From: Octopus sinensis
Taxonomy: Eukaryota
NCBI RefSeq assembly: GCF_006345805.1
Contig: NC_043026.1
Location: forward strand, 12,069,579-12,133,578
Reading direction: 5' to 3'
DNA length: 64,000 nucleotides
The position numbers were made by a program, and so were the translations under genes. The notes beneath the pieces were generated by a model. That model was not told where the DNA came from, made no database searches, and was given only the letters and a program-made list of their open reading frames with translations. Shown piece by piece: positions 3,592-64,000 of the stretch. The number at the start of each line of letters is the position of its first letter. Position 1 is the first letter of the stretch.

Positions 3592-4204
3592 ATTAATTCT
3601 TGAGGAATTCCTAAAAGTTGGGTAAAGTCTGACAGAATAATCTATCGTGCTTTAGTTTTTTTGTTTTTATCTATCGTGAAACTGTTTACACGAGTGGAAA
3701 ATATATAATGTAGGTATATATATTCTACTCACCATTAGAATACTTGCAGCTGACTGGGCACTATTCTAGTAATTCACATTTTGCTGCAAATATAATTATA
3801 TCTATGTCAAAATTAAGAAATGTAGACATGGTTAAAAGATGCTGTCCCAGTCTAAAGGATAAGCAGTCCATAAACGGACGTCCTGGTGAAATCGGAGCGA
3901 TCTTAAGAGATATTGCATTGCAGTAATAATCACAACAGAAAAGCAAAAATCACGGCGAAAAAACGATGTCGGGAGACAGAATATGAGTGTTTATAATAGA
4001 GACTCAATATACGTGTACGTACGTATGTATAGGAGTGTGTACGTATTCTCATATAAGTATAGTCCCAATAAATGGGGTTTGTTTCCCACGAATAGAGGGA
4101 AAGAACAACAATGTGTGTTGCGATGGTAATTCAAATAAGAAAAATCTTTTCAATTTGAAATTCAGCTGAAAAAAGTCAAGGATATTCAGAATAGATATTC
4201 CCTC

Positions 4205-4353
4205 ATTTTGACAAATTAAATTTAAATGTTGAAGTGAATCGAACGGCTTTTGTGTGTTTCTTAAATGGCTTACAAACACCTTCCACGCTGCAATTGTTTT
4301 CGTTTCAGCACACGATCTCAGATCAAGTCACTTGCTATGCAAGTACATCTCTG
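4205..4353 (+). mobile_element. 5'-truncated copy of the hammerhead-bearing (G3-C8 family) repeat
   Basis: Near-identical to 44716-44864; begins at ATTTTGACAAA, the predicted self-cleavage region. Confidence 0.7.
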
Positions 4354-4663
4354 TTATTCCCTCATTTTATAGATTATTAAAACCCGTCCTGTAAAATAGG
4401 GAACAATCAATATACGATGTAATGTATTTAATCATGAAGATGACAGAACACAGATCATGAAACATGTAAATCAAACTTCGCATTAATATCAGATAATTAC
4501 TACACAACATAATTACATTAGCTAAACTAATTAATCTTACCAAGTAGGCGGTGACGTTGACGATTTTCCCGCGTTGGAATGACACCGGTGACTTCAATTA
4601 AAAAGTTCCTAACGTAATTTAACGTTCAGAATCACCTTTAATTGCATAAATTTGTTTCTTTTA

Positions 4664-8315: not shown

Positions 8316-8546
8316 GTCTAGAGAATTACAGTAAAACATTTTCTCTGAATAATACATTTCTTTACCATGTGGAGAGAGTGGAAGATTATTTTGTATTTTA
8401 ATTCAGTTGAGGCTACACGGGACTTTACAACGTCTACGTGTACTATTTGAGATCACATTTGATGAAAATATAGCAGGATAAGTATTTATTAGGAATATTT
8501 GAAAGGAAGAAAACATCTGAATGTTCTGGTGAGAGAAGAAGAAACA

Positions 8547-10145
8547 ATGGCTAATGAAGTGTGTAATAACAACATTGAACACAAATCACAGTGTGAAGGT
8601 ATTGATTTTTCTGATGAGATACCAACAAAGGGAGATAAACCATCATACTGCTGTGATATCTGTAAAAAGTCATTTTCTCAAAATAATATCCTTTCTCGAC
8701 ATAAATGCACTCATACAAATGTGAAAGCATATCGCTGTGGTGTATGTGGTAAATCATTCTCTCAATGTGTTCGCTTAACTGAACACAAAAGCGTTCATAC
8801 AGGAGAAAAGCCATTTTGCTGCGACATCTGTGGATATTCGTTCTCCAAGGTAGACAGTTTAGCCAAACACAAACGCACTCATACAGGAGAAGAGCCATAT
8901 CACTGCGAAATCTGTGGTAAATCGTTCTCTGTGAAATGGAATTTAACTACACACATTCGAATTCATACAGGAGAGAAACCGTATCACTGCCTCGTTTGTA
9001 AGAAATCATTCTCTAGTGGAAGTAACTTAACCAGACATCAATATCTTCATACAGGAGATGAAACACATACCTGTGATATTTGTGGTAAGTCTTTCACTCA
9101 GGAAGATAGATTAGCTAGACACAAATACATTCATACAGCAGAAAAATTGTATGACCATGGGATATCGTTATCAAATAAGACTGCCTTAACTGCTCACAAA
9201 AGCAGTCATTCTGGAGAGAGACCATATTGCTGTGATATTTGTGATAAATCATTTCCTTCAAGTAGTAATTTAAACAAACACAAACGTGTCCATTCAGGAG
9301 AGAAGCCATATCACTGTGACATCTGTGGTAAATCATTTTCTCAAAGTAGCACCTTAACTCAACATAAACGTCGTCATACAGGAGTGAAACCATATCACTG
9401 TGATATCTGTGGCAAATCATTCTTTAAGTTAGATAGCTTGACTATACACAAACGCATTCACACAGGAGAAAAACCATATCACTGTCATATTTGTGGTAAA
9501 TCTTTCTCTACAAGAAGTAACTTAACCACACACAAATATATTCATACAGGAGAGAAACCATATCAGTGTCATTCTTGTGGCAAATCATTCTCTGATGGAA
9601 GCACCTTAACAAGACACAAGTATATTCATACAGGAGAGAAACCATATCAGTGTGATGTCTGTGATAAATCATTCTCCCTGAAAATTAGCTTAGCTAGACA
9701 CAAATACATTCATACAGGGGAAAGACCTTTTCACTGCGACATCTGTGGAATGTCGTTCCTCGATGGAAGTACTTTGACTGGTCACAAACGCATTCATACA
9801 GGAGAGAAGCCATATCACTGTGACATCTGTGGAAAATCATTCTCTAGAAGTAGTCACGTAACTTCACACAAACGCATTCATACAGGAGAGAAACCCTTTC
9901 GCTGTGATGTCTGCGGTAAATCATTTTCTCACAGTGGTTCCTTAACTTCACACAAACGCATTCATTCAGGCGAGAAACTATATCACTGCGATGATTGTGG
10001 TAAATCGTTCTCTGGAAGTAGTGACCTGGCGAGACACAAACGCGTTCATACAGGTGAGAAGCCACATCACTGTGATATTTGTGGCAAATCATTCTCTCAG
10101 AAATGTACCTTAACGTCACATGTATCTATTCATACAGAACCCTAA
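8547..10145 (+). CDS. C2H2 zinc-finger protein, ~532 aa, 17 intact + 1 degenerate finger
   Basis: Uninterrupted ORF; first in-frame ATG at 8547 (the track's 8499 start is TTG); TGEKPY linkers; finger 7 lacks CxxC. Confidence 0.95.
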
Positions 10146-11020: not shown

Positions 11021-11232
11021 TCATCATCATCGTTTAACGTCCGCTTTCCATGCTGGCATGGGTTGGATGATTTGACTGAGGACTAGCAAACCAGAAGGCT
11101 GCACCAGGCTCCAATCTTGATCTGGCAGAGTTTCTACAGCTCGATGCCCTTCCTAACGCCAACCACTATGAGAGTGTAGTGGGTGCTTTTACGTGCCACC
11201 GGCACAGGGCCAGTCAGGCAGTACTGGCAATG
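11021..11232 (-). mobile_element. 3'-terminal fragment of the RTE LINE (3' UTR with GAT-repeat tail)
   Basis: Matches the UTR after the RTE ORF at ~29700-30166; further copies at ~15905-16200, 16500-16780, 17070-17330, 21165-21315, 32666-32920, 49348-49626, 49945-50343, 51740-51900, 53335-53503, 54434-54810, 55375-55873 and 61108-61383. Confidence 0.75.
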
Positions 11233-12134
11233 ACCAAAATATTTTGACAAATTAAAATTTAAATGTTGAAGTGAATCTAACGGTTTTTGTGTGTTTCTTA
11301 AATGGCTTATAAACACCTTCCACACTGCAATTATTTTTATGTTTAACATTTAACCAAGACTTGTATTGATACAATTATAAGTTATAGAATTTACAGACCT
11401 GATCTATTTATGATAAAGTTGCAGGTTTCTCTAAACTGGTCTCACTATACCTCGACTATATGGTGCTATTTCATGCCACAACAGGGACAATTTATTTTAT
11501 AGAAAATGAAATATTACATGCATCTCAAAACTGATTTTCCTGTCAGCAATTGTTGCATATTAATCTGTAAATGCCAAAGGTTTATTATATCAAGGTTTCC
11601 ACATTGTCTGATAACCAAATTAACCAATCATAATTGCTGTAACATGCGATTGAAGACCAACATGTCATCTTTGGATAATGTTTTTTTAGTCCATTGGCAA
11701 AAACATACTTTAATAAAGAAAGCTGCTTATTAAATTGTCTAAATTATGTAACTTTTACTGAAAGAAATCAATTATTAAAGACTATACTGTCTAGAAAATT
11801 TTTATAACTTCCAATTTTAATATATTTTTATCAGAATGCAGTTTTCAAGTTTCTGTTATTATTGATTTTAAGTACACATATCCGTCATGGAACTAATTTT
11901 CATTCACTTTGAGATAGCGCCTTCTTAATGTCATTTTTTATACTGCTTGAAATATAAAGGTTGCCCAAATATTTGCTACTCTACCTTCTGAAAGTTTAAT
12001 CAAGTGTTGGCAAATTATGTTGATTCCAGTATCTTTTCATATTTGTTGGGGGCTGTTGAAGAAATAACTGAATAAAGAAAAGTGGTTTTGATTTGCTTAT
12101 TTCAAATGCTTGAGAAGACCTATCAAGCCAAGTG

Positions 12135-19438: not shown

Positions 19439-20329
19439 TTACTGAAATGTGAACTTTTCTGAAATATGCTTCAAAATATTTTCAAAACATTCATTTCCAG
19501 TTCTGCCGTATTGCTCTCGCCAAAGAAATTCGTTCAGATATGATTCAACCATTTCCGTGTCCCTCCCCATTATATTCTTAAAACATTGCTTCGCCCTTCT
19601 CCAATAACATTCCAGCGTATTGGTATCAAGATCAGTTTTTGCAGGGTCGACGCAATTTTCGGTTTGGTTCGCCACGGAAAGAATATATTTTGGCGTCACA
19701 TTTATTTCACTGATCCTGTTGGACGCACTACAACGATTAGAATGTATGGTGGTCCCTGGTTTGATATATTTCTTAATAAGGAATAGAAGGGTTTCAGGAG
19801 CACAGTCAGGTACAAATGCTAAAAACCCTATTTTGTCATCCCTATCCCATCCTCCAAAAACCCACCTCTCCTGTGACATTCTACCCCTTTTGTACTTTCG
19901 CTTGCACATCATAGGTTCGTCTATTTCTACTATGTGCCCGGGTCCACCAATTTGGTAGGGGTTACGCACGAAATAATCGCTTGTGATGTCCCTCATGTAC
20001 TGGTACCACTGAGTCACGGTAGATATTGATAGACCGACCAACTCGGACGTTAAAAGCACGGTTGTGTTTCGGGACCAGAGGTATGTGAGAAGGATAAAGT
20101 CCTGTAGTCGCAGTTTGGAATACTCCAGAAACGAAGACTTTCTAATGGATTCTTTTTCGCCTTTATGGGCCGAGCAACGAAAGATCTTCACGTCCTTATT
20201 CTTGATCAGGGACATTTCCTTCTGGCAATGCAAACATCGGGGAGCAACGTTGTTAAGGACTTTCTTCTCCTTCAGAAAGGAATAAGCTGCCTCAAAATCT
20301 TGAATGTAAGGCATTATATCGTAAAACAT
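19439..20329 (-). CDS. Merlin/IS1595 (ISXO2-like) DDE transposase-derived protein, ~296 aa, second catalytic Asp replaced by Asn
   Basis: N-terminal CxxC...CxxH zinc ribbon, HTH-like segment, IGGPGHIVEIDE..KRKYKRGR..WVFGG, PGTTIHSN (family consensus SD), TNTLE, SYLNEFLWR; no stops or frameshifts; first ATG at 20329. Confidence 0.9.
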   Translation of the reverse strand: MFYDIMPYIQDFEAAYSFLKEKKVLNNVAPRCLHCQKEMSLIKNKDVKIFRCSAHKGEKESIRKSSFLEYSKLRLQDFILLTYLWSRNTTVLLTSELVGLSISTVTQWYQYMRDITSDYFVRNPYQIGGPGHIVEIDEPMMCKRKYKRGRMSQERWVFGGWDRDDKIGFLAFVPDCAPETLLFLIKKYIKPGTTIHSNRCSASNRISEINVTPKYILSVANQTENCVDPAKTDLDTNTLECYWRRAKQCFKNIMGRDTEMVESYLNEFLWREQYGRTGNECFENILKHISEKFTFQ

Positions 20330-20354
20330 TTTAGGAAATTCAATCACCAATTAT

Positions 20355-31329: not shown

Positions 31330-32463
31330 ATTGGATGAAATTGACCTCAAAGAATTGTTTATTCAAGTACATCGTGACTATTTTTCACCTTTTAAAACCG
31401 AAGGAAAGTATTGTCGAAGCATGTGTTTACCACTGGATGAAATTGACCTCAAAGAATTGTTTATATCAAGTACATCGTGACTATTTTTCACCTTTTAAAA
31501 ACCGAAAAGTATGTTGAAGCATTGTTTTACACTGGATGAATGCTCAAAGAATTGTTATATCAGCATCGTGACTTTTTCACTTTTAAAACCGAGGAAAATG
31601 TATTGTTGAAGCATGTTTTACCAAATGAAATGACCTCAAAGAATTGTTTATATCAAGTACATCGTGACTATTTTTCACCTTTTAAAAACGAAGGCAAATG
31701 TATTGTTGAAGCATTGTTTTACACTGGATGAAATTGCCTCAAAGAATTTTATACGTACATCGTGACTATTTTTCACCTTTTAAAACCGAGGCAATGTATT
31801 GTTGAAGCATTGTTTTACCACTGGATGAAATTGACCTCAAAGAATTGTTTATATCAAGTACATCGTGACTATTTTTCACCTTTTAAAAACCGAAGGCAAA
31901 TGTATTGTTGAAGCATTGTTTTACCACTGGATGAAATTGACCTCAAAGAATTGTTTATATCAAGTACATCGTGACTATTTTTCACCTTTTAAAAACCGAA
32001 GGAAAATGTATTGTCGAAGCATTGTTTTACCACTGGATGAAATTGACCTCAAAGAATTGTTTATATCAAGTACATCGTGACTATTTTTCACCTTTTAAAA
32101 ACCGAAGGCAAATGTATTGTTGAAGCATTGTTTTACCACTGGATGAAATTGACCTCAAAGAATTGTTTATATCAAGTACATCGTGACTATTTTTCACCTT
32201 TTAAAAACCGAAGGAAAATGTATTGTTGAAGCATTGTTTTACCACTGGATGAAATTGACCTCAAAGAATTGTTTATATCAAGTACATCGTGACTATTTTT
32301 CACCTTTTAAAAACCGAAGGCAAATGTATTGTTGAAGCATTGTTTTACCACTGGATGAAATTGACCTCAAAGAATTGTTTATATCAAGTACATCGTGACT
32401 ATTTTTCACCTTTTAAAAACCGAAGGAAAATGTATTGTCGAAGCATTGTTTTACCACTGGATG
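31330..32463. repeat. 106-bp satellite, ~11 copies
   Basis: CTGGATGAAATTGACCTCAAAG at 31821, 31927, 32033...; early copies carry small deletions. Confidence 0.95.
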
Positions 32464-33379: not shown

Positions 33380-36990
<3,611 letters not shown>

Positions 36991-37944: not shown

Positions 37945-38068
37945 GTTTTTAATATACCGTAAATGGTCTTTTTACATACTGAACACTACTTGGTAAAATT
38001 ATTAATTAATAATTCATTAATTATACCCTTTTATTATTGACTATATATATATATATCTATATCTATAG

Positions 38069-39746
38069 CATAGGCTAATCATTTGTGACTTTAGGCTTGA
38101 GGCCAGAAGGACTCCAAAAAGCAGACCAATCCAGAAAAGAAGGATTTGGAAGCTAAAGAACCCTTCACATGGTCAGAGATTTAGGGACATCCTCATCAAG
38201 AAATTTGATGAGAGGGAGGAGGAGCTACAGACGTCAGACATAGAAGGTAGCTGGAAATCCCTACGGGACAGCTTGCTGAGTGCCACAGACCAAGTCTGTG
38301 GATGGTGCAAAGTCCCTTCCAGACCTAGAGTTACGTGGTGGTGGAATAGTGCAGTAGATAAAGCCATTAGTACAAAGAAACAGGCCTGGAGGGATGGGGG
38401 TAGCAGGGAACCGTACCAAGTAGCCAAAAGGGAGGCCGGGCGGCAGGTATACATAGCCAAAGATATAGCAGAAAAGAAGAAGTTTGCCAATGTCCAGCGA
38501 CGTGAGGACCAAAGAACTGAGGTATTTCGGATTGCTAGACAGTGTGTGAGAGAAAATAGTGATGTTACAGGAGAGAAATGTGTCCGTATGAATGATGGGG
38601 CACTTGCTTTTAATGTTGGTGAAAAGAAAGAGGCTTGGAGAAGCCATTATGAAAGACTGCTGAATGTGGAGAATGAATGGGAGGAGGAGAGCCTGCCAAA
38701 TGTTGACCCAGTAGAGGGACCAGCTATCCAAATAGACAGCTCCCTTGTAGTTAAGGCAATTAAGGGTATGAAACCAGGTAAAGCCCCCGGCCCATCAGGT
38801 ATCACTGCTGAGATGCTTAAAACAGCTGGTTATGTGGGCTATGGCCTAGTCACCTGTATTGTTAACCAGGTAGTTCATAATGGAGTCATACCCAATGACT
38901 GGCGTAGCAGCACCATAGTCAACTGCTACAAGGGTAAAGGTGATTCTCTAGATAGAAATAACTACAGGGGTATTAAACTGTTGGATCAGGTGATGAAGGT
39001 CACAGAGAGGGTCATAACCCATCTCATTAGGGAGAGAATTTGCTTAGATGAGATGCAGTTCGGTTTTGTGCCGGGTAGAAGCACCACTGATGCTATATTC
39101 CTGGTCCGACAACTGCAGGAGAAGTACCTAGCTAAAGATAAACCCCTCTACATAGCTTTTGTGGACTTGGAGAAAGCCTTTGACAGGGTTCCCCGATCCC
39201 TTATCTGGTGGTCGATGCGGAAACTGGAGATTGACAAATGGCTAATAAGGGCTGTACAGGCTCTATACAGAGAGGCTGTCAGCAAGGTTAGGATTGGCAA
39301 CGAATATAGTGAAGAATTCAGGGGAGAAGTAGGTGTACACCAAGGCTCAGCCCTCAGTCCCCTTTTATTCATCATAGTCCTCCAGGCAATAACAGAGGAA
39401 TTCAAAACAGGTTGCCCCTGGGAGATCCTCTATGCTAATGACCTGGCTCTCATAGCAGAATCACTACCGGAACTAGAAAAGAAACTTCAAGTGTGGAAGC
39501 AAGGTTTAGAATCGAAGGGCCTTAGAGCCAGTGTTACAATGACCAGAGTTCTAGTAAGTAGGAAGGCAAACACATCACATACCCCTTCAGGTAGGTGGCC
39601 CTGTTTAATCTGTAGAAAAGGTGTAGGTAGAAACTCCATAAGATGTACCCAGTGTAAGCTATGGACACATAAGAGGTGCAGCAACATCAAAGGAAGTTTA
39701 ACCTGGAAGATAGCTTTCGTGTGCAGCAGATGCACAGGGGAAATAA
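38069..39746 (+). mobile_element. RTE-clade LINE fragment (end of APE endonuclease, RT, PHD-like insert), 3' end lost at a SINE
   Basis: HRLIICDF (APE end), KAPGPSGI, YKGKGD..NYRGIKLL, QFGFVPGRSTTDAIF, YAND in place of YADD; runs into a SINE at ~39747. Confidence 0.92.
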
Positions 39747-40014
39747 ACCGCTAAGTAACGGGGACATAAACACACCAGCATCGGTTGTCAAGCAATGCTA
39801 GGGGTACAAACACAGACACACAAACACATACACACATATACATATATATACGACAGGCTTCTATCAGTTTCCATCTACCAAATCCACTCACAAGGGTTTA
39901 GTCGGCCCAAGGCTATAGCAGAAGACACTTGCCCAAGGTGCCGCGCAGTGGGACTGAACCCAGAACCATGTGGTTGGTAAGCAAGCTACTTACCACACAG
40001 CCACTCCTACGCCT
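39747..40014 (-). mobile_element. SINE family A (3'-truncated)
   Basis: Matches the head and body of family A. Confidence 0.8.
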
Positions 40015-41658
40015 ATATGTTTATATATAACAAGTAAAATGCCCCATGTCCAATGGACGGTGCTGAGTTGTTGAACATTTAAACCAAATTTTCTCAAAAC
40101 AACTTGTCTGACCGTCCCATAGGCCTCCCCTTTGAGAAACACTGATTTAACCTAAATTTGAGACACTAGCAAAAGAAGAAATAAAGATAGACTTCTTTTC
40201 TATTCCAAAGAAAAACGATTTTATTCACACAAATATGCAAAAGACTATATACTGCATTTTGTGGCATTATTTTGAGCCAGTTGGCTTTTTTTGTGCTAAC
40301 TGCATGTGCACTTTTCTTGTGTACACGTAGTATCGATCGCAACAGCTGATGTACTTGCACGTACAAATGCACGTTCCCATGGCTTTATCGATCGTATTCT
40401 CACCTGGAATCGATTTTTGTAAGTTTTTCAAGACTTTTATACACACACTGATACTGTCGGTATCTACATATCAAATTTGAGTGCAAAATTGAGTGCAGCC
40501 ACTCCTGCAGCCATTAGTATTTTATTCATTAAAATATTGATCTTTTTTTCTTTAATAGCAACGCTTTTCTTTTAACTTCAATTAGCACTATGACCCAGCC
40601 CTCTAACTGAAAAATTGTGGATTTGTATAAAGGACACTCCCGCAGGGATCTTGCCATTTTATATATATAGAGATGACGAAATTAAAGCCCAAGATAGCAA
40701 GCTTACTAACATTCCCATAAACACGTTCAATTGCCCATATAGCAGAAAGGAATATTGATAGAAAGGATTAGTAGATAATGAAACCAATCCCTAAATATTT
40801 ATAATAAAACTGGAAGCATCTTCAAGAACTTATAAAAGTAAATTCGAAAATATCTAACCAGAGAACATTAAATTTATTTTGCTTAATCAAGTTTGCCAAA
40901 TTACTTTCGTACTTACTTAATTGACTGCATTTATTAGTTCTGCACTCAAATGTATCTAAAATGAAAGATTCCCTTTTTTTTTTTTTATTAGAAAAAATTA
41001 TTTATGAAAAGATATGACTTTTTGTAAAAAAAACAACACTTCTTTTCCTTTCTCAAATGAAATGCAAAGTGCGGCTAGTGAATAATATGTTGGTAGCCCA
41101 TGACTAAGGCTTTTACACCTTTTAGACCTGCATAACCATTAACCAGCATTTGTCAACTGAAGGTAATTTAATTATATACTCTCACACTTGTATAATTTGT
41201 TAATAATCTTTAGGAAAGATTACTAGAAAGATAGGCGCATCCTTAACCATATTTCAAAAGAACGAGAAGTTTTTGTGTTGTTTTTTTCTCAAAAATTTAA
41301 TCCACGTTTTTTTAAACGTTTGTATCAACTCTAAAAAACTTTTCTTTTTCATTGATTTTATTTACTTAGTTCGAAATATATTATTTAACTTGTGTAAAAA
41401 ATTTATATACATTATATAAATAACTTAGATATGTTTCGACCAAAGGTGCTATTAATTTAGACATGGCCTGGACCAATCTTTGGTCGAAACATATCTAAGT
41501 TATCTAACATTAAAAAAAAAACAACTTTGCAAGGTTCTTTATGTGAATTCGTGTGTTGAAGCATGTTCTTTTGTATCTGGGGAGAGTAATTTTCTTTTTG
41601 TGCCTTACGATATAACACGCACACGCACACACACACACACACACCTGTAGCACGAAGT

Positions 41659-41709
41659 TTTGTCAGTGAACAGGTCGCGGTCTCAAAGCAATGAAAATAT
41701 TTTGACAAA
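41659..41709 (+). ncRNA. Type-I hammerhead motif, G3-C8 core
   Basis: UUUGUCA-GUGAACA-g-GUCGC loop GCAAU-GAAA-AUAU-UU-UGACAAA (one stem II mismatch). Confidence 0.6.
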
Positions 41710-41824
41710 TTAAACTTAAATGTTGAAGTGAATTGAACGGTTTTGGTGTTTCTTAAATGGCTTATAAACACCTTCCACGCTGCAATTATATATATATATA
41801 TATAAACCTTATTCAGCACGGATT

Positions 41825-41875
41825 TTTGTCAGTGAAGAGGTCGCGGTCTCAAAGCGATGAAAATATTTTGACAAA
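41825..41875 (+). ncRNA. Hammerhead motif, same family (core GUGAAGA, 3-8 mismatch)
   Basis: Second tandem unit, period 166 bp; stems intact. Confidence 0.55.
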
Positions 41876-42466
41876 TTAAACTTAAATGTTGAAGTGAATC
41901 GAACGGCTTTTGTGTGTTTCTTAAATTGTTTATAAACACCTTCCACGCTGCAATTGTTTTCTTATTTTTATTTTCCTAAAGTTTTCGTTGCGTCTTGCAA
42001 CCTTTTCAATAGTTTTGACAAAAAGGAAATGGCTCTCCCCGAGGCACAAGGGAATATTTAAGATTATTTGTGTATCGTGCTTGCGCGAATCTAGTCATTT
42101 GCATACGCCTTAGTTGTAGGATCATTTCAATGAAATTTTATAGAAATACAATTGCAAGGGCTTATTCTTTGTAAGCCCAGTACTTATTCTATCGGTCTCT
42201 TTTGCCGAACCGCTAAGTGACGGGGACGTCAACACACCAGCATCAATGAAATTTTATAGAAATACAATTGCAAGGGCATACGTTACGATTATAAAGAAAT
42301 TTGTGGGGAGAAGACTTCGGAAAATTCACAAAATCCGAGTTTTTTCCTCATGATTTTTAGGAAAATGGGTTGTTGTTTTTTCAACGAAAACAAATGAAGA
42401 ATGCAAAAAATTAGGAACATTCATCTATTTTTAAATATTTTGTACTAAAATATAAAACAAATCCAA

Positions 42467-42825
42467 GGAGCAGGAATGGCTGTGTGGTAAGTAGCTTGCT
42501 AACCAACCACATGGTACCGGGTTCAGTGGCACCTTGGGCAAGTGTCTTCTACTATAGCCCCGGGCCTTGTGAGTGGATTTGGTAGACGGAAACTGAAGGA
42601 AGCCCGTCGTATATATGTATGCGTGTGTGTGTTTGTGTGTCTGTTTGTCCCCCTAGCACTGCTGGTGTGTTTACGTCCCCGTTACTTAGCGTTTCGGCTA
42701 AAGAGACCGATAGAATAAGTACTGGGCTTGCAAAAGAATAAGTCCCGGGGTCGAGTTGCTCGACTAAGAGGCGGTGCTCCAGCACGGCCGCAGTCAAATG
42801 ACTGAAACAAGTAGAAGAGAGTAAA
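42467..42825 (+). mobile_element. SINE family A
   Basis: Head to tail with internal deletions. Confidence 0.8.
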
Positions 42826-42992
42826 ATGTAAACGGAGGAAGACAGTCACTAATAGGAACATGTCGGACTATGCAATCGACCGATGTATCAACTAATGGTA
42901 TACTGTTCTAGATGTACACCTGTCGTTAACATCACGTCACAGACCCATCACTAGGAAACGTTGACGCTTCCTTCTGATTGGACTTTGACGTT

Positions 42993-43167
42993 ACATCTAG
43001 AACAGTCGGTGCTCATCTAGAACAGTCGGTGCTCATCTAGAACAGTCGGTGCTCATCTAGAACAGTCGGTGTACATCTAGAACAGTCGGTGCACATCTAG
43101 AACAGTCGGTGCTCATCTAGAACAGTCGGTGCTCATCTAGAACAGTCGGTGTACATCTAGAACAGTC
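42993..43167. repeat. 20-bp minisatellite CATCTAGAACAGTCGGTGCT, 8 full copies plus a partial
   Basis: Exact 20-bp period; one inverted copy at ~42903-42920. Confidence 0.95.
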
Positions 43168-43992
43168 TACTATTAGTCATCCTTAGGTTTGCACACGTTT
43201 TATACCTACATAACCATTAAACAGCATTTGTCAACCACACTTCTATAATTTGTTAATAATCTTTAGGAAAGATTACTAGAAAGGTAAGCGCATCCTTAAC
43301 CATATTTCAAAACAATGAGAAGTTAATTTTATTTTTTTTAAACGTTTGTATCAACTCTAAAAAACTTTTCTTTTTCATTGTTTTTATTTACTTAGTTCGA
43401 AAAATATTATTTAATTTGTGTAAAAAAATTTATATACATTATATAAATGTTAGATAACTTAGATGTGTTTCGACCAAAGGTGCTATTAATTTAGACATGG
43501 CCTTGACCAATCTTTGGTCGAAACATATCTAAGTTATCTAACATTTAAAAAAAAAACTTAGTTTGTTTATAAAAAGTAATTTATTATTTAATATTATTTC
43601 GTTTTTGGATTCGGTTTGCAAGGTTCTTTATGTGAATTCGTGTGTTGAAGCATGTTCTGTTGTATCAAAAATTTAATCCACGTTTTTTTAAATGTTTGTA
43701 TCAACTCTAAAAAGCTTTTCTTTTTCATTGTTTTTATTTACTTACTTCGAAAAATATTATTTAATTTGTGTACAAAAAATTATATACATTTAAAAAAGAA
43801 AAAAACTTAGTTTGTTTATAAAAAGTAATTTATTATTTAATATTATTTCGTTTTTGGATTTGGTTTGCAAGGTTCTTTATGTGAATTCGTGTGTTGAAGC
43901 ATGTTCTGTTGTATCTGGGGAGAGTAATTTTCTTTTTGTGTCTTACGATATAACACGCACACGCACACACACACACACCTGTAGCACGAAGT

Positions 43993-44042
43993 TTTGTCAA
44001 TGAAGAGGTCGCGGTCTTAAACGACGAAAATATTTTGACAAA
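43993..44042 (+). ncRNA. Hammerhead motif, same family, decayed core (AUGAAGA)
   Basis: Stems I and III as in other copies; part of the 41090-41790 / 43180-44125 duplication. Confidence 0.45.
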
Positions 44043-44305
44043 TTAAACTTAAATGTTGAAGTGAATCGAACGGCTTTTGTGTGTTTCTTAAATGGCTTAT
44101 AAACACCTTCCACGCTGCAATTGTCTATATATATATAAACTGATCTATTCTGAAAAAACTTTTCCTCTCCCGAAATGCAATTCGTAAAAGTTTACGATTT
44201 ATCCAGATGTAATATATATAAACTCACCCATGTGCTTCGTTGATGTTGATCAGTTAGCTGATCGGCTTAAGCGAGGCAGGGTCGTTGTTTATTTATAATA
44301 CATTC

Positions 44306-44353
44306 AGGCCTGCTGATGATTACGTAAGTATGAAATCACTGTGATACAGGTCT
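44306..44353 (+). ncRNA. Type-I hammerhead motif, canonical CUGAUGA core
   Basis: AGGCCUG-CUGAUGA-uUAC guaa GUAu-GAAA-UCAC u GUGA-UA-CAGGUCU; 7-bp stem I; U-U at the base of stem II. Confidence 0.7.
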
Positions 44354-44616
44354 ATATTTTTAAATGTCTTACTTTGAAAAATTGCATTCGGTGGGATTAG
44401 TAATATTTTTGGTAGAAATGACTGATTGTCCCTCTTAGCGTTTGGCATGTATATACAATGCCTCCTGGCATGTATGTATAATGCCCTCTATATATAAATT
44501 AATATGTTCAATAAGAAATAATTATTTTCGAAATTTTTTCTCTTATGAGGTTTTTACGCTATCTACCTGACAATTTCTTGTTAAGTTTTTCCTTATTAAG
44601 TAGTTGTCCTTAATTG

Positions 44617-44659
<43 letters not shown>

Positions 44660-44675
44660 TTATTCAGCATGGATT

Positions 44676-44726
44676 TTTGTCAGTGAACAGTTCGTGGTCT
44701 CAAAGTGACGAAAATATTTTGACAAA
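44676..44726 (+). ncRNA. Type-I hammerhead motif, G3-C8 core
   Basis: UUUGUCA-GUGAACA-...GUGAC-GAAA-AUAU-UU-UGACAAA; stem II partly mutated. Confidence 0.55.
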
Positions 44727-45011
44727 TTAAACTTAAATGTTGAAGTGAATCGAACGGCTTTTGTGTGTTTCTTAAATGGCTTACAAACACCTTCCACGCT
44801 GCAATTGTTTTCGTTTCAGCACACGATCTAAGATCAAATCACTTGCTAGGCAAGTACATCTCTGTATTCTTTAAAAGTTGATAAATATTGATGATGCATT
44901 TGGTGATCCTTTGATGCCAATGTCTTCAGATAATCTGAAATAGAAACAAAAGTATAAGATATGGAAGATACTATTTTACTAGATTATTTTTATACAGATA
45001 AACTATATAGA

Positions 45012-45159
45012 CAATTGCAGCGTGGAAGGTGTTTGTAAGCCATTTAAGAAACACACAAAAGCCGTTCGATTCACTTCAACATTTAAGTTTAATTTGTCAA
45101 AATATTTTCGTCACTTTAAGACCGCGACCTGTTCACTGACAAAAATCCATGCTGAATAA

Positions 45160-45200
<41 letters not shown>

Positions 45201-45515
45201 GCAGTGTGGAAAGTGTTTATAAGCCATTTAAGAAACACACAAAAGCCGTTCGATTCACTTCAAAATTTAAGTTTAATTTGTCAAAATATTTTCATCGCTT
45301 TAAGACCGCGACCTGTTCACTGACAAAAATCCATGCTGAATAAGGTTTATATATATATATATATATATAATTGCAGTGTGGAAAGTGTTTATAAGCCATT
45401 TAAGAAACACACAAAAGCCGTTCGATTCACTTCAACATTTAAGTTTAATTTGTCAAAATATTTTCGTCACTTTAAGACCGCGACCTGTTCACTGACAAAA
45501 ATCCATGCTGAATAA

Positions 45516-45554
<39 letters not shown>

Positions 45555-45683
45555 GCAGTGTGGAAGGTGTTTATAAGCCATTTAAGAAACACACAAAAGC
45601 CGTTCGATTCACTTCAAAATTTAAGTTTAATTTGTCAAAATATTTTCATCGCTTTAAGACCGCGACCTGTTCACTGACAAAAT
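45012..45683 (-). mobile_element. Tandem array of four hammerhead-carrying units (retrozyme / Penelope pLTR-like) separated by (TA)n
   Basis: G3-C8 hammerheads at 45093-45143, 45277-45327, 45449-45499 and 45631-45681 (periods 184/172/182, differing mainly by TA number); flips to an inverted copy at 45681. Confidence 0.8.
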
Positions 45684-45954
45684 GTTGAAGTGAATCGAAC
45701 GGCTTTTGTGTGTTTCTTAAATGGCTTATAAACACCTTCCACGCTGCAATTGTTTTCTTATTTTTATTTTCCTAAAGTTTTCGTTGCGTCTTGCAACCTT
45801 TTCAATAGTTTTGACAAAAAGGAAATGGCTCTCCCCGAGGCACAAGGGAATATTTAAGATTATTTGTGTATCGTGCATGCACGAATCTAGTCATTTGCAT
45901 ACGCCTTAGTTGTAGGATCATTTCAATGAAATTTTATAGAAATACAATTGCAAG

Positions 45955-46268
45955 GGCTTATTCTTTGTAAGCCCAGTACTTATTCTATCGGTCTCTTTTG
46001 CCGAACCGCTAAGTGACGGGGACGTCAACACACCAGCATCGGTTGTCAAGCAATGCTAGGGGGACAAACACAGACACACAAACATACACATATATACATA
46101 TATACGGCGGGCTTCTTTCAGTTTCCGTCTACCAAATCCACTCACAAGGCTTTGGTCGGCCCGAAGCTATAGTAGAAGACACTTGCCCAAGGTGCCACGC
46201 AGTGGGACTGAACCCGGAACCATGTGGCTGGTAAACAAGCTACTTACCACACAGCCACTCCTGCGCCT
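45955..46268 (-). mobile_element. SINE family A
   Basis: Family A body and head; further copies at ~47972-48395(-), 48805-49226(-), 52116-52518(-), 52764-53190(+), 56299-56825(+), 58572-58976(-), 62332-62940(-) and 63499-63905(+). Confidence 0.85.
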
Positions 46269-46400
46269 GTTTGAGGGATCCCTATACTTCCAGGTCTTCC
46301 TCTTTCAGATTGGTTTGTTGTTTCTGAAACTTTTTAGCTCTAAGTCTTAAATTGAAATATTTCTAGTTTCTCATCTTTTTTAAAAAATATTTTTCAGATC

Positions 46401-46437
46401 ATGATGTCTGTACTCCTGTGCTTCACTTGCTTGATTT
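46401..46437 (+). CDS. Ig-like transmembrane gene, coding exon 1 (signal peptide MMSVLLCFTCLI)
   Basis: TTTTCAG acceptor 3 nt before the ATG; GTAAGT donor; phase 1. Confidence 0.7.
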
Positions 46438-47290
46438 GTAAGTTATCATTATTTTTTAATAATTAATATTTCTTTCTCGTTACCATTTGATATTCTTTGA
46501 AAATAATGTTTTCAAGTGTCAAATACATTGTCTATCCATCAATATCTTTAAATGTGGAGGCACATGGCCTAGTGGTTAGAGCAGCAGACTCACAGTCAAG
46601 GGATCGTTGGTTTGTGTCTCAGACCGGACGATGTGTGTGTTTATGAGCGAAAACACCTAAGCTCCACGCCGCTCCGGCAGAAGGTAATGGCGAACTTCTG
46701 CTGACTCTTTCGCCACAACTTTCTCTCACTCTTTGCTCCTGCATCTTGCAGCTCACCTGCGAGGGATCGCAGGTTCAAATCTCAGATCGGGCGATGTGTG
46801 TGTTTATGAGCGAAAACACCTAAGCTCCACGCCGCTCCGGCAGAAGTCCCTGGTGTGTGTGTGTTTTTTTTTGGGGGGGGGGTGCATTTATTTGGACATA
46901 ATGTGTTGTGTCACCATCATACGAACCTTGTCATTTGTTACCTATTCATAAGGTATTATTTTACTTGGAAACAGGGATTGTTGACAGCAAGAAGTGGGAA
47001 CTCCCTCATAAAATTTCATGTGAACGCGAAAAAGTGAGTGTTAAAATGATAATGCTTTCATTTTAACTGCCCCTGCATGCAATGTGTAATTCTAGCAACG
47101 TATGTGTTATATTGCTCTACTTTCATTCTTGGTTCTGTCGAAGAATCGAATTAAGTTTTGTGACTCAGCTTTATTTTGTGTGTTCACCTCGTGTCCTTTT
47201 AAAGTGAACTTTTGACCGGCTTCTAATTTGCATACTGGTTTGTTTTGTAAGTGATACTTTTTGCATGTGGATTTTAGAGTTCTGCTTTAA

Positions 47291-47763
47291 CCCTTTCGAT
47301 ACCAACCCGGCTGAAACCGGCCCTGGCTCTGGATACAAATGTTTTGTTTTCATAAGTTTTGAATTAAAATCTTCCACCAAACCTTAGTCACAATTTATGT
47401 TCCTAACACTAGCTGATTGATAACTAAGTTATTTTACTAAATTCTTTGGTATATTTAAAATTAATTGAAAGAAACACAGAGCATCTCAACAGAAATATGG
47501 TAACAAAAGGGTTAAAATATATAATAGAGAAACAATTCTTAACCCTTTTGATACCAACCTGGTTGAAACCACCTCTGGCTCTGTAGTACAAATGTCTTGT
47601 TTTCATAAGTTTTGAATTAAAATCTTCCACCAATCCTTAGTCACAATTTATGTTCCTAACACTAGCTGAATGATAACTAAGTTATTTTACTAAATTCTTT
47701 GTTATATTTAAAGTAATTGAAAGAAACACAGAGCATCACAAAATAAATACAGTAACGAAAGGG
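47291..47763. mobile_element. Two tandem piggyBac-type MITEs (47291-47511, 47543-47763)
   Basis: TTAA-CCCTTT...AAAGGG-TTAA termini; the two copies are highly similar. Confidence 0.75.
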
Positions 47764-48182
47764 TAGCTTTCAGTGTGCATTTTTTAGTTTATATTGCATT
47801 GTATTGTCTCTATTATTGCTTGGCATTCAAGTAATGTAATCCAAGTTAATAATTCTGTATTAAAACATAACAATGCGTTAATTATTTAACCCTTCAATAT
47901 TCAGATTGTTCTATCAAATGTAATGCATATTTAATCACACTCTTTTGAGCTTTGAGCTTTAGATGAGGTGATTACTCTTTACTCTTTTACTTGTTTCAGT
48001 CATTTGACTGCGGCCATGCTGGAGCACCGCCTTTGGTCGAGCAACTCGACCCCGGGACTTATTCTTTGTGAGCCCAGTACTTATTCTATCAGTCTGTTTT
48101 GCCGAACCGCTAAGTGACGGGGACGTCAACACACCAGCATCGGTTGTCATGCGATGCTAGGGGGACAAACACAGACACACAA

Positions 48183-48229
<47 letters not shown>

Positions 48230-48699
48230 TATATACGACGGGCTTCTTTCAGTTTCCGTCGACCAAATCCACTCACATGGCTTTGGTCAGCCCGAGGCTA
48301 TAGTAAAAGACACTTGCCCAAGGTGCCACGCAGTGGGACTGAACCCGGAACCATGTGGTTGGTAAGCAAGCTACTTACCACACAGCCACACCTGCTTATT
48401 TTTTAGAATTACATTGTAAGATAAGTGTGAGAGGCTGGATCTGGCTGGCTGAAGCATAAAACAAGTTGAACATTTTGGGCCACATATGGCTGGTTTACAT
48501 GCTGGTTTACATTTCTTGTGGCACTAGCACCAATGGGCCCACAAGATTTGGCACCAACAGCTACAAGCCCAAACAAAATTTCAGACCTTGTGTCTATAGT
48601 AGAAAGAATTGTTTAATTATTGTTACAAATATAGCAACCGATTTAGATTATCAAATGTAAAATCTGAAAAATTAAAAATTATGCTACCATTTTTTGCAG

Positions 48700-48741
48700 G
48701 TCTGACGAAAGGATATACTTACTATAAAGCTTTTCAGCAAG
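48700..48741 (+). CDS. Ig-like transmembrane gene, exon 2 (CLTKGYTYYKAFQQ)
   Basis: TTTTTTGCAG acceptor, GTAAAT donor, 42 nt, phase 1-1; completes the signal peptide. Confidence 0.65.
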
Positions 48742-51216
48742 GTAAATGGCTTAAGAAATATTTTTCTCATTTTTAACTACACAATTCTGCCTTCTCTCTT
48801 TTTCTCTTTTCTCTTTTACTTGTTTCAGTCATTTGACTGCGGCCATGCTGGAGCACCGCCTTTAGTCGAGCAAATCGACCCCAGGACTTATTCTTTGTAA
48901 GCCCAGTACTTATTCTATCAGTCTCTTTTGCCGAACCGCTAAGTGACGGGGGACGTAAACACAGCAGCATTGGTTGTCAAGCAATGCTAGGGGGACAAAC
49001 ACAGACACACAAACACACACACATACATATACATATATATATATATATATATACATATATATACGACAGGCTTCTTTCAGTTTCTGTCTACCAAATCCAC
49101 TCACAAGGCATTGGTCGGCCCGGGGCTATAGCAGAAGACACTTGCCCAAGATGCCACGCAGTGGGACTGAACCCGGAACCATGTGGTTGGTAAGCAAGCT
49201 ACTTACCACACAGCCACTCCTGCGCCTTCTATTTCTTTCCCTTATAATCTTTTACTTTATGTTCCTAATACTAGCTGAATGATAACTAAGTTATTTGTAT
49301 TTTTTTTTCCTGTCTTCATTGGGACAGTTCCATTTTAGGAGCCCAATGTCATCATCATCATCATTTAACGTCCGTTTTCCGCGCTAGCACGGGCTGGTTG
49401 GTTCGACCAGGGTCTGGGAAGCCAGGAGCTGCACCAGGCTCCTGTCTGATCTGGCAGTGTTTCTACAGCTGGATGCCCTTCCTAACGCCAACCACTCCGC
49501 GAGTGAAGTGGGTGCCTTTTACGTGACACCGGCACAGGTGCCAGGGGAGTCTGGCAGTGGCCACGGTTGGTTGGTGCTTTTAATGTGCCACCGGCCACGT
49601 TCGGATGGTGCTTTTTACGTGCCACATCAATTAATGGTCATCTTCCCTGCTGATATGGGTTGGAAGATTTCAACACAATTAAAAGTGGATGCAAGGCGCA
49701 AGCATGGCCGTGTTGCTAAGAAGTTTGCTTTGCAACCATATGGTTCCAGGTTCAGTCCTACTGCTTGGAACCTTCAGTAAATGTCTTTCCCTACAATACT
49801 GGGTCGACCAATGCTTTGTGAGTAGATTTGGCTTGAGAGAAACTGGAAGAAGCCCATTGTGTGTCTATGTGAGTGAGTTTGTATTTCCCTAGCATTTTCT
49901 AGTTTGTAAACAATGGTTTCCCAGCAATATAAAAAAAAAAAAATCAAAATCGAAATCAATCAACATCAATGGAATTTGTAGTTGTGGCACATAAGAGAAC
50001 CATCCGAATGTGGCCGTAGCCAGCACCGCATCGACTGGCCTCCGTGCTGGTGGCACGTGACAAACGCCATCCGATCGTGGCCGTTGCCAGCCCTGCCTGG
50101 CCTCCGTGCCAGTGGCACGTAAAAAGCACCATCCGAGCGTGGCCGTTCGCCTGCCTCGTCTAGCACCTGTGTCGGTGGCACATGAAAAGCACCCACTACA
50201 CTCACGGAGTGGTTGGCGTTAGGAAGGGCATCCAGTTGTAGAAACACTGCCAGATCTGACTGGCCTGGTGCAACCTTCAGTTGAACCATCCAACCCATGC
50301 TAGCATGGAAAGCGGACGTTAAACGATGATGATGATGATGATGATCAGTTGCTTGCAATCCACCACAAAAACATGCCTGGGCTTCTCAACATACTGCACA
50401 ATTTTTGCAAACTAAAAGGCTCATTGAAATGGTGATATTCGTTTCCAGTTTTCAGCATGAAACCCGTCCAGGCTGTTTTATATTTGATAGGCGTGGGCAT
50501 GGCTGTGTGGTTAGGGAGCTTGCTTCCTAGCTACATGGTTTCAGGTTCAGTCCCACTGCGTGGGACTTTGGGTAGGTGTCTTCCACTATAACCCCATGCC
50601 GACTGAAGCTTTGTGATTGAATTCGGTAGGCGGAAGTTACTGCCGTGTGTGTATGTGTGCGTATAGCTGCTCAGTGCCTCTCCGAAAGAGAGAGAGAGGG
50701 AATAGCTGCACTCTTGTTACACAAGAAAAGCCATTGCCAAGAAGACATACTGAAATGAAGTGTTTTGCTCAAGAATACAACGCGTCACCCGGTCCAGGAA
50801 TCGAAACCACAATCTTACGATCATGATGCTGACACCCTAACCACTAAGCCACGTGCCTCCACAAACACACACACACACACACACATATAATATAATATAA
50901 TAATATAGGCGCGGGCACGGCTGTGTGGTTAGGGAGCTTGCTTCCTAGCTACATGGTTTCAGGTTCAGTCCCACTGCGTGGGACTTTGGGTAGGTGTCTT
51001 CCACTATAACCCCATGCCGACTGAAGCTTTGTGATTGAATTCGGTAGGCGGAAGTTACTGCCGTGTGTGTATGTGTGCGTATAGCTGCTCAGTGCCTCTC
51101 CAGAAGAGAGAGAGAGGGAGACTGGAATATTATTACCTTGCTTGGAAACAGGGGCGGGCATCCACCTGTAGGATAATATAATGAACAAATCAGTAATGTC
51201 GATTTCTTTATTTTAG

Positions 51217-62660: not shown

Positions 62661-64000
62661 CTTGTTTTATTTATATTCCTGAGCGCCATACTAATAAAAT
62701 TGTTTGTTTGTACTCCACCTGCCTTCGTCTTTTGTTTATTTTCATAAAGCTTCCCGTTATATATATACATATATACGACGGGCTTCTTCCAGTTTCCGTC
62801 TACCAAATCCACTCACAAGGCTTTGGTCGGCCCAAGGCTATAGCAGAAGACACTTGCCCAAGGTGCTACGTAGTGGGAATGAACCCAGAACCATGTGGTT
62901 GGTAAGCAAGCTACTTACCACACAGCCACTCCTGCGCCTATCCAGACTAATTTCCTGTGATTGATGTATTGTGATTTCATTGACTGTTGAAATTTTTCTC
63001 TAGTGACGCATGGAAAACGGACGCTAAATGATGATGATGATGATATATATATATATATATATATATATGACAGACAGACATGTAGATATATAGTGAACAG
63101 ACACATGTGGTTAACTGTTACTCCAGTCTATACAAAATCAACCATATACTGGAATATTCTACCAACAGAAAACATATTTGTATGTTAAATTTATTCTTAA
63201 AGTTCTATAACCAGATATATATTGAAAGAAGGAGGGTGTAGAAAACACCACTGTTGGTGGTTTGTAAATTATAAAGAATGAGGAAATGTTTGTCCCAGGG
63301 TATGACATAATAGTATATGTGCATGTATGTGTGTAATACATATATTACACACCCAACTCACCCAACAAAAACTCACTACTTGAATGGACCATAAACAAAA
63401 CTTGACTTAAACAGGATTCAAATAATCCTATCAGGTGGTGCTATTAAGTAAGACATGACCTGGACCAATCTTTAGTCGAAACATATCTAAGTTTATATGC
63501 AGGAGTGGCTGTGTGGTAAGTAGCTTGTTTACCAACCACATGGTTCTGGGTTCAGTCCCACTGTGTGGCACCTCGGGCAAGTGTCTTCTACTATAGCCTC
63601 GGGCTGACCAAAGCCTTGTGAGTGGATTTGGTAGACGGAAACTGAAAGAAGCCCGTCGTATATATGTATATATATATATATGCGTGTGTGTGTTTGTGTG
63701 TCTGTCTTTGTCCCCCTAGCATTGCTTGACAACCGATGCTGGTGTGTTTATGTCCCCGTTACTTAGCGGTTCGGCAAAAGAGACCGATAGAATAAGTACT
63801 GGGCTTACAAAAGAATAAGTCCCGGGCTCGAGTTGCTTGACTAAAGGCGGTGCTCCAGCATGGCCACAGTCAAATGACTGAAACAAGTAAAAGAGTAAAG
63901 AGTATACATACATACATATATATTTGTTTAAATATACAAATATATATGAAATATACACCCTAGCTTCCTAAAAAGAAATGAGAAAATGGATAATGTAGTC

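What the first reader, a model, noticed from the sequence alone, without database searches (positions are those of the whole stretch)
41649..45960. Tandem 166-184-bp (TA)n-linked repeat carrying a G3-C8 hammerhead
Seen: units contain UUUGUCA-GUGAACA-g-GUCGC(loop)GUGAC or GCGAU-GAAA-AUAU-UU-UGACAAA. GUGAACA is the compensatory swap of CUGAnGA, and the two stem II variants both keep pairing through G-U wobbles. There is a dimer (+), monomers (+) and a tetramer (-) that flips into an inverted copy; period varies mainly with the TA tract. Inference: multimeric transcripts self-process to ~170-185-nt monomers or circles via dimeric hammerheads and are mobilised by a Penelope-like RT. The weak AAUAUU stem III and UUU triplet make activity uncertain.
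Basis: partly seen in the sequence, partly recalled or inferred. Interest (0 to 1): 0.85.

Follow-up and report, generated by a model that had tools for sequence, protein, structure and literature searches.

The report
Penelope repeat with flipped hammerhead core
These repeats are short copies of the end region of an abundant Penelope-like jumping gene; they carry a predicted self-cutting RNA whose central base pair is naturally flipped (G3-C8), but the genome record suggests the copies were likely pasted in from uncut RNA rather than from self-cut circles.

Summary
There are eight hammerhead-shaped copies, six with core GUGAACA, and the period is set by the TA tract. The unit is the pseudo-LTR of an autonomous Penelope-like element (PLE) found elsewhere in the genome: ORF about 1,040 aa, with a C-terminal GIY-YIG and its ATG inside the repeat.

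Genome-wide, 4,906 of 5,381 pattern matches are G3-C8. None of the first 100 of 185 G8 copies had C3. The sister PLE family and three outgroup PLEs have C3-G8 with covarying stems, so the swap is real and derived. I found no natural G3-C8 hammerhead in the papers searched; one key paper was unavailable.

The processing model is not supported. 5' ends of 97 copies cluster 50-60 nt upstream of the predicted cut (54 of 97), not at it (4 of 97). TA-linked multimers were inserted whole: 8 of 19 have target-site duplications, and 9 of 19 end in a tail that a monomer circle lacks. The longest array has a broken core. The stem II wobbles are CpG decay. Cleavage and expression are untested.

Verdict: a new core variant of the known PLE hammerhead, in retrozyme-like arrays.

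The parts
41646..41787 (+). pLTR copy 1 (dimer 5' unit); core G3-C8, stem II with a C.A mismatch; predicted cut 41702/41703
41788..41810 (+). (TA)n tract plus the 7-nt non-element junction AAACCTT that marks the multimer lineage
41811..41961 (+). pLTR copy 2; core G3.G8 (mismatch, predicted inactive); predicted cut 41868/41869
43980..44124 (+). pLTR copy in the duplicated block; core A3.G8 and damaged stem II
44618..44661 (+). (TA)n tract plus junction
44662..44866 (+). pLTR copy with about 60-nt PLE tail; G3-C8 core but G10.1 lost; ATG at 44776 opens the first 30 codons of the PLE ORF
   Evidence: 90.7% identical to the 5' pLTR+tail of full element L170
44867..45010 (.). 144-nt non-element spacer, 98.6% identical to spacers between element pieces at two other C30 loci
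45011..45157 (-). tetramer unit 4 (3'-most); G3-C8, stem II paired with one G.U; predicted cut 45100/45099
45197..45341 (-). tetramer unit 3; G3-C8, G10.1.U11.1 wobble; predicted cut 45284/45283
45369..45513 (-). tetramer unit 2; G3-C8; predicted cut 45456/45455
45551..45682 (-). tetramer unit 1, 5'-truncated at the start of stem I; G3-C8; predicted cut 45638/45637
45680..45757 (+). inverted, 5'-truncated partner copy without hammerhead (PLE hallmark)
41104..41645 (.). upstream flank block, duplicated (with internal repeats) at 43182-43979
   Evidence: families D5, D8, D9, D10, D14
41962..42183 (.). downstream flank block, duplicated at 45758-45979 (99% identity over 300 nt including element end)
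   Evidence: family D4
4205..4357 (+). separate 5'-truncated copy of the same pLTR with tail, outside the finding
11232..11337 (+). separate 5'-truncated copy of the same pLTR, outside the finding

Best explanation
The repeat unit is the pseudo-LTR and ORF start of an endonuclease-bearing Penelope-like retrotransposon; it carries a predicted PLE-type hammerhead with a family-wide, derived G3-C8 core pair, and the TA-linked arrays likely arose and spread by PLE reverse transcription of uncut read-through RNA plus local DNA duplication. Shown: the element, the motif, the copy ends and the target-site duplications. Inferred steps: (1) the PLE protein nicks (TA)n or AT-rich DNA and starts reverse transcription at one of two internal sites about 33 and 92 nt into the ORF; (2) it copies through the intact hammerhead to the RNA 5' end 50-60 nt upstream of the cut site, giving 145- or 205-nt copies; (3) one such copy landed in the TA tract just behind another pLTR end and fixed the TA-AAACCTT junction; (4) transcripts through these tandems were copied and inserted as dimers to hexamers, mostly on C30, then expanded or rearranged as DNA. 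The ribozyme is likely slow or conditional (dimer- or protein-assisted) and not required for each insertion.
For: Full element with this pLTR at both ends and the tail continuing into the ORF (L170). Open frames of 1,042, 839, 807 and 793 aa in copies 92-94% identical to the query; for L155, L157, L158 and L159 the G3-C8 motif lies 0.9-1.05 kb after the stop. GIY-YIG Pfam E 1.3e-5, above cutoff. 3' ends of 97 anchored copies: 38 at ref 177-182, 57 at 230-240. 5' ends: 54 at ref 28-41, 16 at 42-55, 4 at 86-95, where the cut is 90/91 (p=2e-29 for the upstream cluster, p=0.32 for the cut site). Target-site duplications of 7 nt or more in 8 of 19 junction-bearing clusters against 7 of 342 mismatched control pairs (p=6e-8), one on another chromosome (C21). 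9 of 19 clusters end in a tail. G3-C8 in 4,906 of 5,381. Sister family C3-G8 in 96 of the first 100 of 2,339, with double changes in stems I, II and III. Three outgroup PLE loci are C3-G8, and the tree nests this family among them. PMC11167929: in an anole PLE, C3G/G8C partly rescues cleavage, cleavage is not needed for insertion in vitro, and RT starts at two internal sites.
Against: No RNA-level data: promoter, start site, cleavage and template are all inferred from DNA copies. 11 of 19 clusters show no target-site duplication, and 3-4 of the 8 found are A/T-rich. Partial cleavage with religation or template switching would leave a similar record. Pfam found no family on the whole L155 ORF and only a sub-cutoff RVT_1 on the sister, so the RT call rests on the YVDD motif and on homolog names. 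The 97 copies come from the first 46 Mb of one chromosome and required an exact 22-mer, which favours young copies. Constraint on the motif within the family is suggestive only (Fisher p=0.16).
Confidence: 0.72

Rival explanations
1. Active non-LTR retrozyme: multimeric transcripts self-cleave as double hammerheads into 170-185-nt monomers that circularise and are copied by rolling-circle reverse transcription.
For: Tandem units with a type I motif and a palindromic stem III; a double-hammerhead fold is possible (-63.1 kcal/mol constrained). 32 of 68 junction units keep core and stems. Some insertions share a private variant across several or all units (L030, L091, L025, L096). Retrozymes derive from pLTRs (bioRxiv 10.64898/2026.07.22.740005).
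Against: Tails at the 3' end of 9 of 19 multimer clusters cannot come from a monomer circle. Units within arrays differ (L005, L010). No 5'-end peak at the cut. The double fold is 9.4 kcal/mol above the monomer fold. The junction lineage is small and local: 58 of 79 exact matches on C30, 20 on small contigs, 1 on C21. The longest array has A3.C8 in 15 of its 16 units in L013 and 11 of 11 in L014.
Confidence: 0.15
2. The motif is a catalytically dead hammerhead relic kept, if at all, for another role (RNA fold for the PLE protein, splice or promoter context), and G3-C8 was fixed by drift.
For: 185 dispersed G8 copies (99 of the first 100 are G3.G8). The sister family reached 2,339 matches with A9 replaced by C in 96 of the first 100. 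G3 pairs with U17 in the predicted monomer fold. Constraint test not significant.
Against: A complete two-step compensatory swap in 91% of copies, and double changes in all three stems between families, are hard to get by drift. Non-CpG difference rate is 0.036 in the motif against 0.084 in other non-coding columns; the stem I substitution shared by many copies keeps a U.G pair.
Confidence: 0.25
3. The arrays are ordinary satellite or segmental duplications of one old PLE fragment in a zinc-finger cluster, with no RNA step after the first insertion.
For: The window's flanks are duplicated. The tetramer alternates two variants, as a duplicated dimer would. The roughly 24-unit array looks homogenised. 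Strong concentration on C30.
Against: Arrays have different outer flanks, PLE-type ends, inverted partners and target-site duplications, including a dimer on C21.
Confidence: 0.1

Closest known systems
[quoted passage not shown]
   Same: Position in the pLTR, extra nucleotide between A9 and G10.1, G10.1-C11.1, short palindromic stem III suited to dimers, opposite-strand pairs 100-700 bp apart
   Different: Core pair is G3-C8; the natural covariation reported there is U3-A8 (Schistosoma Cercyon). Stem I is longer (6-7 bp).
Poseidon PLE of Anolis carolinensis, PAc (PMC11167929)
   Same: ORF starts within the pLTR region, two internal RT start sites that define the tail, AT-rich targets, insertion from unprocessed RNA; engineered C3G/G8C partly active
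   Different: Here the swap is natural and family-wide; the tail is about 60 nt rather than 30-40; the linker has a CxxxCxxC motif (Neptune/Nematis-like); the evidence is genomic, not biochemical.
Metazoan non-LTR retrozymes (PMC7229834; bioRxiv 10.64898/2026.07.22.740005)
   Same: Head-to-tail 170-185-nt units with a type I hammerhead, low GC, derived from a pLTR
   Different: The unit still carries the PLE start codon and a captured (TA)n target. The hammerhead is the PLE variant, not the canonical one with loop 1-2 contacts. Circular RNA is not shown, and the genomic ends argue for uncut linear templates.
Natural core variants of Perreault et al. 2011 (PMC3088659)
   Same: Covariation at core positions 3 and 8 occurs in nature
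   Different: The section read names only U3-A8; G3-C8 is not named.

Membership tests
PLE-type (minimal) type I hammerhead | Core C3 U4 G5 A6 N7 G8 A9 ... G12 A13 A14 A15.1 ... U16.1 H17 | tested here: not met
   Literal consensus fails at positions 3 and 8 (G3-C8, Watson-Crick pair kept); all other core positions match. Rfam gave no hammerhead hit at E<=10.
PLE-type (minimal) type I hammerhead | Stem II with G10.1-C11.1 and an extra nucleotide after A9; stem I; palindromic short stem III | tested here: met
   features as listed in PMC4209133
PLE-type (minimal) type I hammerhead | Covariation supports the fold | tested here: met
   Against the sister family: double changes at 3-8, one stem II pair, 15.2-16.2 and two stem I pairs; one A.C mismatch and an unpaired sixth stem I position in the sister
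PLE-type (minimal) type I hammerhead | Purifying constraint within the family | tested here: inconclusive
   Shared variants in 3 of 34 motif columns against 14 of 67 other non-coding columns, p=0.16
PLE-type (minimal) type I hammerhead | Self-cleavage after N17 | not testable with these tools
   needs in vitro transcription
EN+ Penelope-like element | Single ORF with RT and C-terminal GIY-YIG flanked by this repeat | tested here: met
   RT by YVDD motif and homolog names, Pfam RVT_1 below cutoff
EN+ Penelope-like element | 5' truncation, optional tail, inverted 5'-truncated partner, (TA)n preference | tested here: met
   features from PMC8557442
Neptune clade of PLEs | CX2-5CxxC linker between RT and endonuclease | tested here: met
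   PMC8557442 says a Zn-finger-like linker motif also marks Nematis
Neptune clade of PLEs | Phylogenetic placement with named Neptune references | not tested
   no named reference proteins were in the tree
Non-LTR retrozyme | At least two consecutive tandem units with a complete type I hammerhead | tested here: inconclusive
   Met by the tetramer only if G3-C8 counts as complete; the + dimer fails
Non-LTR retrozyme | Accumulates as monomeric circular RNA | not testable with these tools
   only assembled contigs were offered
Non-LTR retrozyme | Spreads through cleaved or circular monomers | tested here: not met
   5' ends avoid the cut site; tail-bearing, heterogeneous multimers inserted whole. 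Indirect, from DNA only.

The most novel reading that the evidence does not exclude
This is the first natural, active G3-C8 hammerhead, fixed across a PLE family of about 5,000 or more copies (possibly through a G3.G8 intermediate that still survives in 185 copies, and eased by U17, which avoids a G3-C17 trap). The TA-linked arrays on C30 are a retrozyme caught at birth, built from PLE 5'-end cDNAs and moved as uncut multimers.
Probability: 0.35. Interest if true: 0.7.

Novelty: new variant of a known kind. Interest (0 to 1): 0.5.

Why it matters
The C3G/G8C swap is a classic laboratory test of the hammerhead fold; a natural family-wide version shows that descriptors fixed on CUGAnGA miss whole ribozyme families (Rfam found nothing here). 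The family also supplies matched natural alleles (G3-C8, G3.G8, A3.C8, sister C3-G8 with A9 or C9) and thousands of copies whose ends can be mapped. That makes the open question of what PLE and retrozyme hammerheads do directly testable. The record here leans toward cleavage not being required for mobilisation.

Tried and rejected
Rfam scan of 38000-50000 at E<=10: no hammerhead family among 33 rows. Expression: no RNA holder listed on record; the four runs laid were contigs, two only guessed to be RNA, so ends, strand and circles could not be read. Earlier scan findings: none by sequence or by words. Lunse et al. 2017 (about 150,000 PLE hammerhead variants, recalled) was not held, so it may already contain G3-C8 examples. 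One supplement of PMC4209133 could not be searched; the bioRxiv supplements were not seen. The RT ORF in the window (38069-39754) is unrelated to this PLE (best E 3.0) and is not the driver. Recombination at the cut site: a few mosaic copies exist (two in the window) but too few independent events to test. The 5' boundary could be a capped start (extra G before AGATGC in 22 of 36 truncated copies) or a 3' splice site (branch-point-like ACTAAC, pyrimidines, CAG); no donor site was found in 5 of 6 3' UTRs, and some Gs can be templated by the inverted partner, so this stays unresolved. Metagenome relatives: 42 of 46 loci showed no motif, many too short, and one of the four hits was on the opposite strand inside the ORF match and was not used. 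In the tree, three metagenome rows are frameshifted and were read in one frame with X at stops, which lengthens their branches.
Full report
Observation. The region holds eight hammerhead-shaped copies: a + dimer (41646-41961), + monomers at 43980 and 44662, and a - tetramer (45011-45682) that runs straight into a partial inverted copy (45680-45757). Tetramer periods are 184, 172 and 182 nt, which is 145 nt plus TA-and-junction gaps of 39, 27 and 37. Six of eight cores read GUGAACA; one is G3.G8 and one A3.G8. Only the four tetramer units combine G3-C8 with a folding stem II. The commonest stem II in the genome is fully Watson-Crick. Rfam gave no hammerhead match among 33 rows at E<=10.

What the unit is. 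The window lies on contig C30 of a 2.72-Gb genome. The best named homolog of the element's protein is from Octopus vulgaris at 56% identity, so an octopus host is likely (inference). A 26-nt piece of the motif has 3,257 exact matches and a 22-nt piece of the 3' end has 6,408, with 0 for reversed controls. The first 30 loci on C1 show PLE hallmarks as described in PMC8557442 (passages read): variable 5' truncation, a fixed 3' end, an optional tail, inverted 5'-truncated partners and (TA)n targets. Walking upstream reached a GIY-YIG domain (Pfam E 1.3e-5, above cutoff) at the end of long ORFs with a YVDD motif and a CxxxCxxC linker. Open frames of 1,042, 839, 807 and 793 aa are followed 0.9-1.05 kb after the stop by the G3-C8 motif. 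In L170 the repeat stands at both ends, and the 5' copy's tail continues as the ORF. The ATG lies inside the repeat, at 44776 in the window copy, which is 90.7% identical to that 5' pLTR. Pfam found no family on the whole L155 ORF and only a sub-cutoff RVT_1 on the sister family. The unit is therefore a pseudo-LTR plus ORF start of an EN+ PLE, Neptune- or Nematis-like by linker; clade placement was not tested.

The G3-C8 core. With positions 3, 7 and 8 free, a 22-nt pattern has 5,381 matches; 4,906 (91%) are G3-C8 and 185 have G8. Of the first 100 G8 copies, 99 are G3.G8, one is U3 and none is C3. A sister PLE family (about 56% RT identity) has a motif at the same place with C3-G8 in 96 of the first 100 of 2,339 matches. 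Between the two families there are double changes at the 3-8 pair, one stem II pair, 15.2-16.2 and two stem I pairs, with one A.C mismatch in the sister. Among 46 metagenome relatives, three had a same-strand motif just after the ORF, all C3-G8; one more hit lay on the opposite strand and 42 loci had none. A 10-row tree places this family beside the sister (99/97) and inside C3-G8 outgroups, so G3-C8 is derived. In contigs from four coded organisms, no other letter reached 5% at G3 or C8. The extra nucleotide after A9 and the palindromic stem III are typical of PLE hammerheads (PMC4209133, parts 1-2 of 4 read), and U17 occurs in the sister and two outgroups, so these traits are not oddities. 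Within the family, non-CpG differences per site are 0.036 in the motif and 0.084 in other non-coding columns, but shared-variant columns (3 of 34 against 14 of 67) do not differ significantly (p=0.16).

Literature on the swap. Natural U3-A8 is reported in PMC3088659 (section 8 and passages read) and PMC4209133. Engineered C3G/G8C partly rescues cleavage, including in a PLE hammerhead (PMC11167929, passages and part 2 of the main text; PMC8495972, passages). PMC3884650 (passages) notes that an engineered G3-C8 variant is more active with G17 than with C17, which suggests that U17 may have eased the swap (inference). Searches for G3C8, G3-C8, C3G/G8C and hammerheads in cephalopods found no natural G3-C8 report. 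Lunse et al. 2017 was not held, one supplement of PMC4209133 was not searchable, and subscription papers are not covered, so novelty is provisional.

How the copies were made. I took 97 of the first 100 places matching an exact 22-mer downstream of the motif, so the sample is not selected on the motif. 3' ends fall in two groups: 38 at reference 177-182 and 57 at 230-240, both inside the ORF, as with the two internal RT start sites of PMC11167929. 5' ends are 7 at or before 27, 54 at 28-41, 16 at 42-55, 7 at 56-85, 4 at 86-95 and 9 beyond 95, where the predicted cut is 90/91. The upstream cluster is far above uniform (p=2e-29); the cut site is not enriched (p=0.32). Most templates therefore ran through an uncut hammerhead. 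The boundary may be a capped start or a 3' splice site; I could not separate these.

The TA-linked multimers. The junction that links units is not part of the master element. It has 79 exact matches: 58 on C30, 20 on small contigs, 1 on C21. These arrays have different outer flanks and PLE-type ends. Of 19 junction-bearing clusters examined, 8 have a target-site duplication of 7 nt or more against 7 of 342 control pairs (p=6e-8); 11 have none, including both window clusters. Nine of 19 end in the tail, which a cut-to-cut monomer circle would not contain, and units within arrays such as L005 and L010 differ from each other. Multimers with several hammerheads, ideal substrates for dimer cleavage, were thus inserted whole. 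Against a need for cleavage, the longest array (C30, 13.62 Mb, about 24 units by span) is A3.C8 with a damaged stem II, 185 G8 copies are dispersed, and the sister family spread with C at position 9. In favour of the retrozyme view, a double-hammerhead fold is possible (-63.1 against -72.5 kcal/mol), 32 of 68 junction units keep core and stems, and some insertions share a private variant across several or all units. In the window itself, duplicated flanks and alternating tetramer variants show DNA-level duplication on top of the insertions.

Verdict. This works like a PLE pseudo-LTR hammerhead and is a member of an EN+ PLE family. It fails the literal hammerhead consensus only by a compensatory swap. 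It resembles non-LTR retrozymes (PMC7229834, introduction and passages; bioRxiv 10.64898/2026.07.22.740005, first part and passages) in layout and origin, but the defining circular intermediate is unshown and the DNA record points to uncut linear templates. Cleavage and expression are untested. New variant of a known kind; interest 0.5.

Noticed in passing
window 41417-41521 and 43451-43555; single arm at 63437-63493: Duplicated near-perfect hairpin of about 100 nt made of two inverted copies of another short repeat; it contains a stem followed by GAAAC and may be a decayed pLTR of a different PLE family.
   Followed up: partly
L160, L162, L164, L173, L174, L277-L286: Sister PLE family (2,339 pattern matches) whose hammerhead has C in place of the conserved A9 in 96 of the first 100 copies; A9 survives in 3.
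   Followed up: partly
L175-L186 and window 41827: 185 dispersed G8 copies, nearly all G3.G8, on several subfamily backgrounds; an ancestral intermediate, a reversion or recombination is not decided.
   Followed up: partly
L069-L071, L155-L159, just upstream of the pLTR boundary: Branch-point-like ACTAAC, a pyrimidine run and CAG end exactly where most short copies begin; many short copies carry an extra G there.
   Followed up: partly
window 44867-45010; L002, L029: A 144-nt non-element spacer travels between element pieces at three C30 loci with different outer flanks; possibly transduced.
   Followed up: partly
L003 (G000:C30 12.45 Mb): A trimer inserted directly behind the 3' end of a sister-family pLTR; its tail runs about 170 nt further into the ORF.
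   Followed up: no
window 38069-39754 (+): 561-aa RT ORF (RVT_1 E 2.4e-24, weak PHD-like end), LINE-like and unrelated to the PLE.
   Followed up: partly
window 2290-3651 (-), 8493-10145 (+), 33719-36715: C2H2 zinc-finger arrays, the last a degenerate 120/163-bp tandem repeat; the window lies in a zinc-finger cluster.
   Followed up: partly
window 19439-20350 (-): 303-aa ORF with an ISXO2-like DDE transposase domain (E 1.1e-9).
   Followed up: no
window 42994-43167 and 31332-32463: A 20-bp minisatellite (8.7 copies) between the duplicated blocks, and a 106-bp tandem array (11 copies).
   Followed up: no
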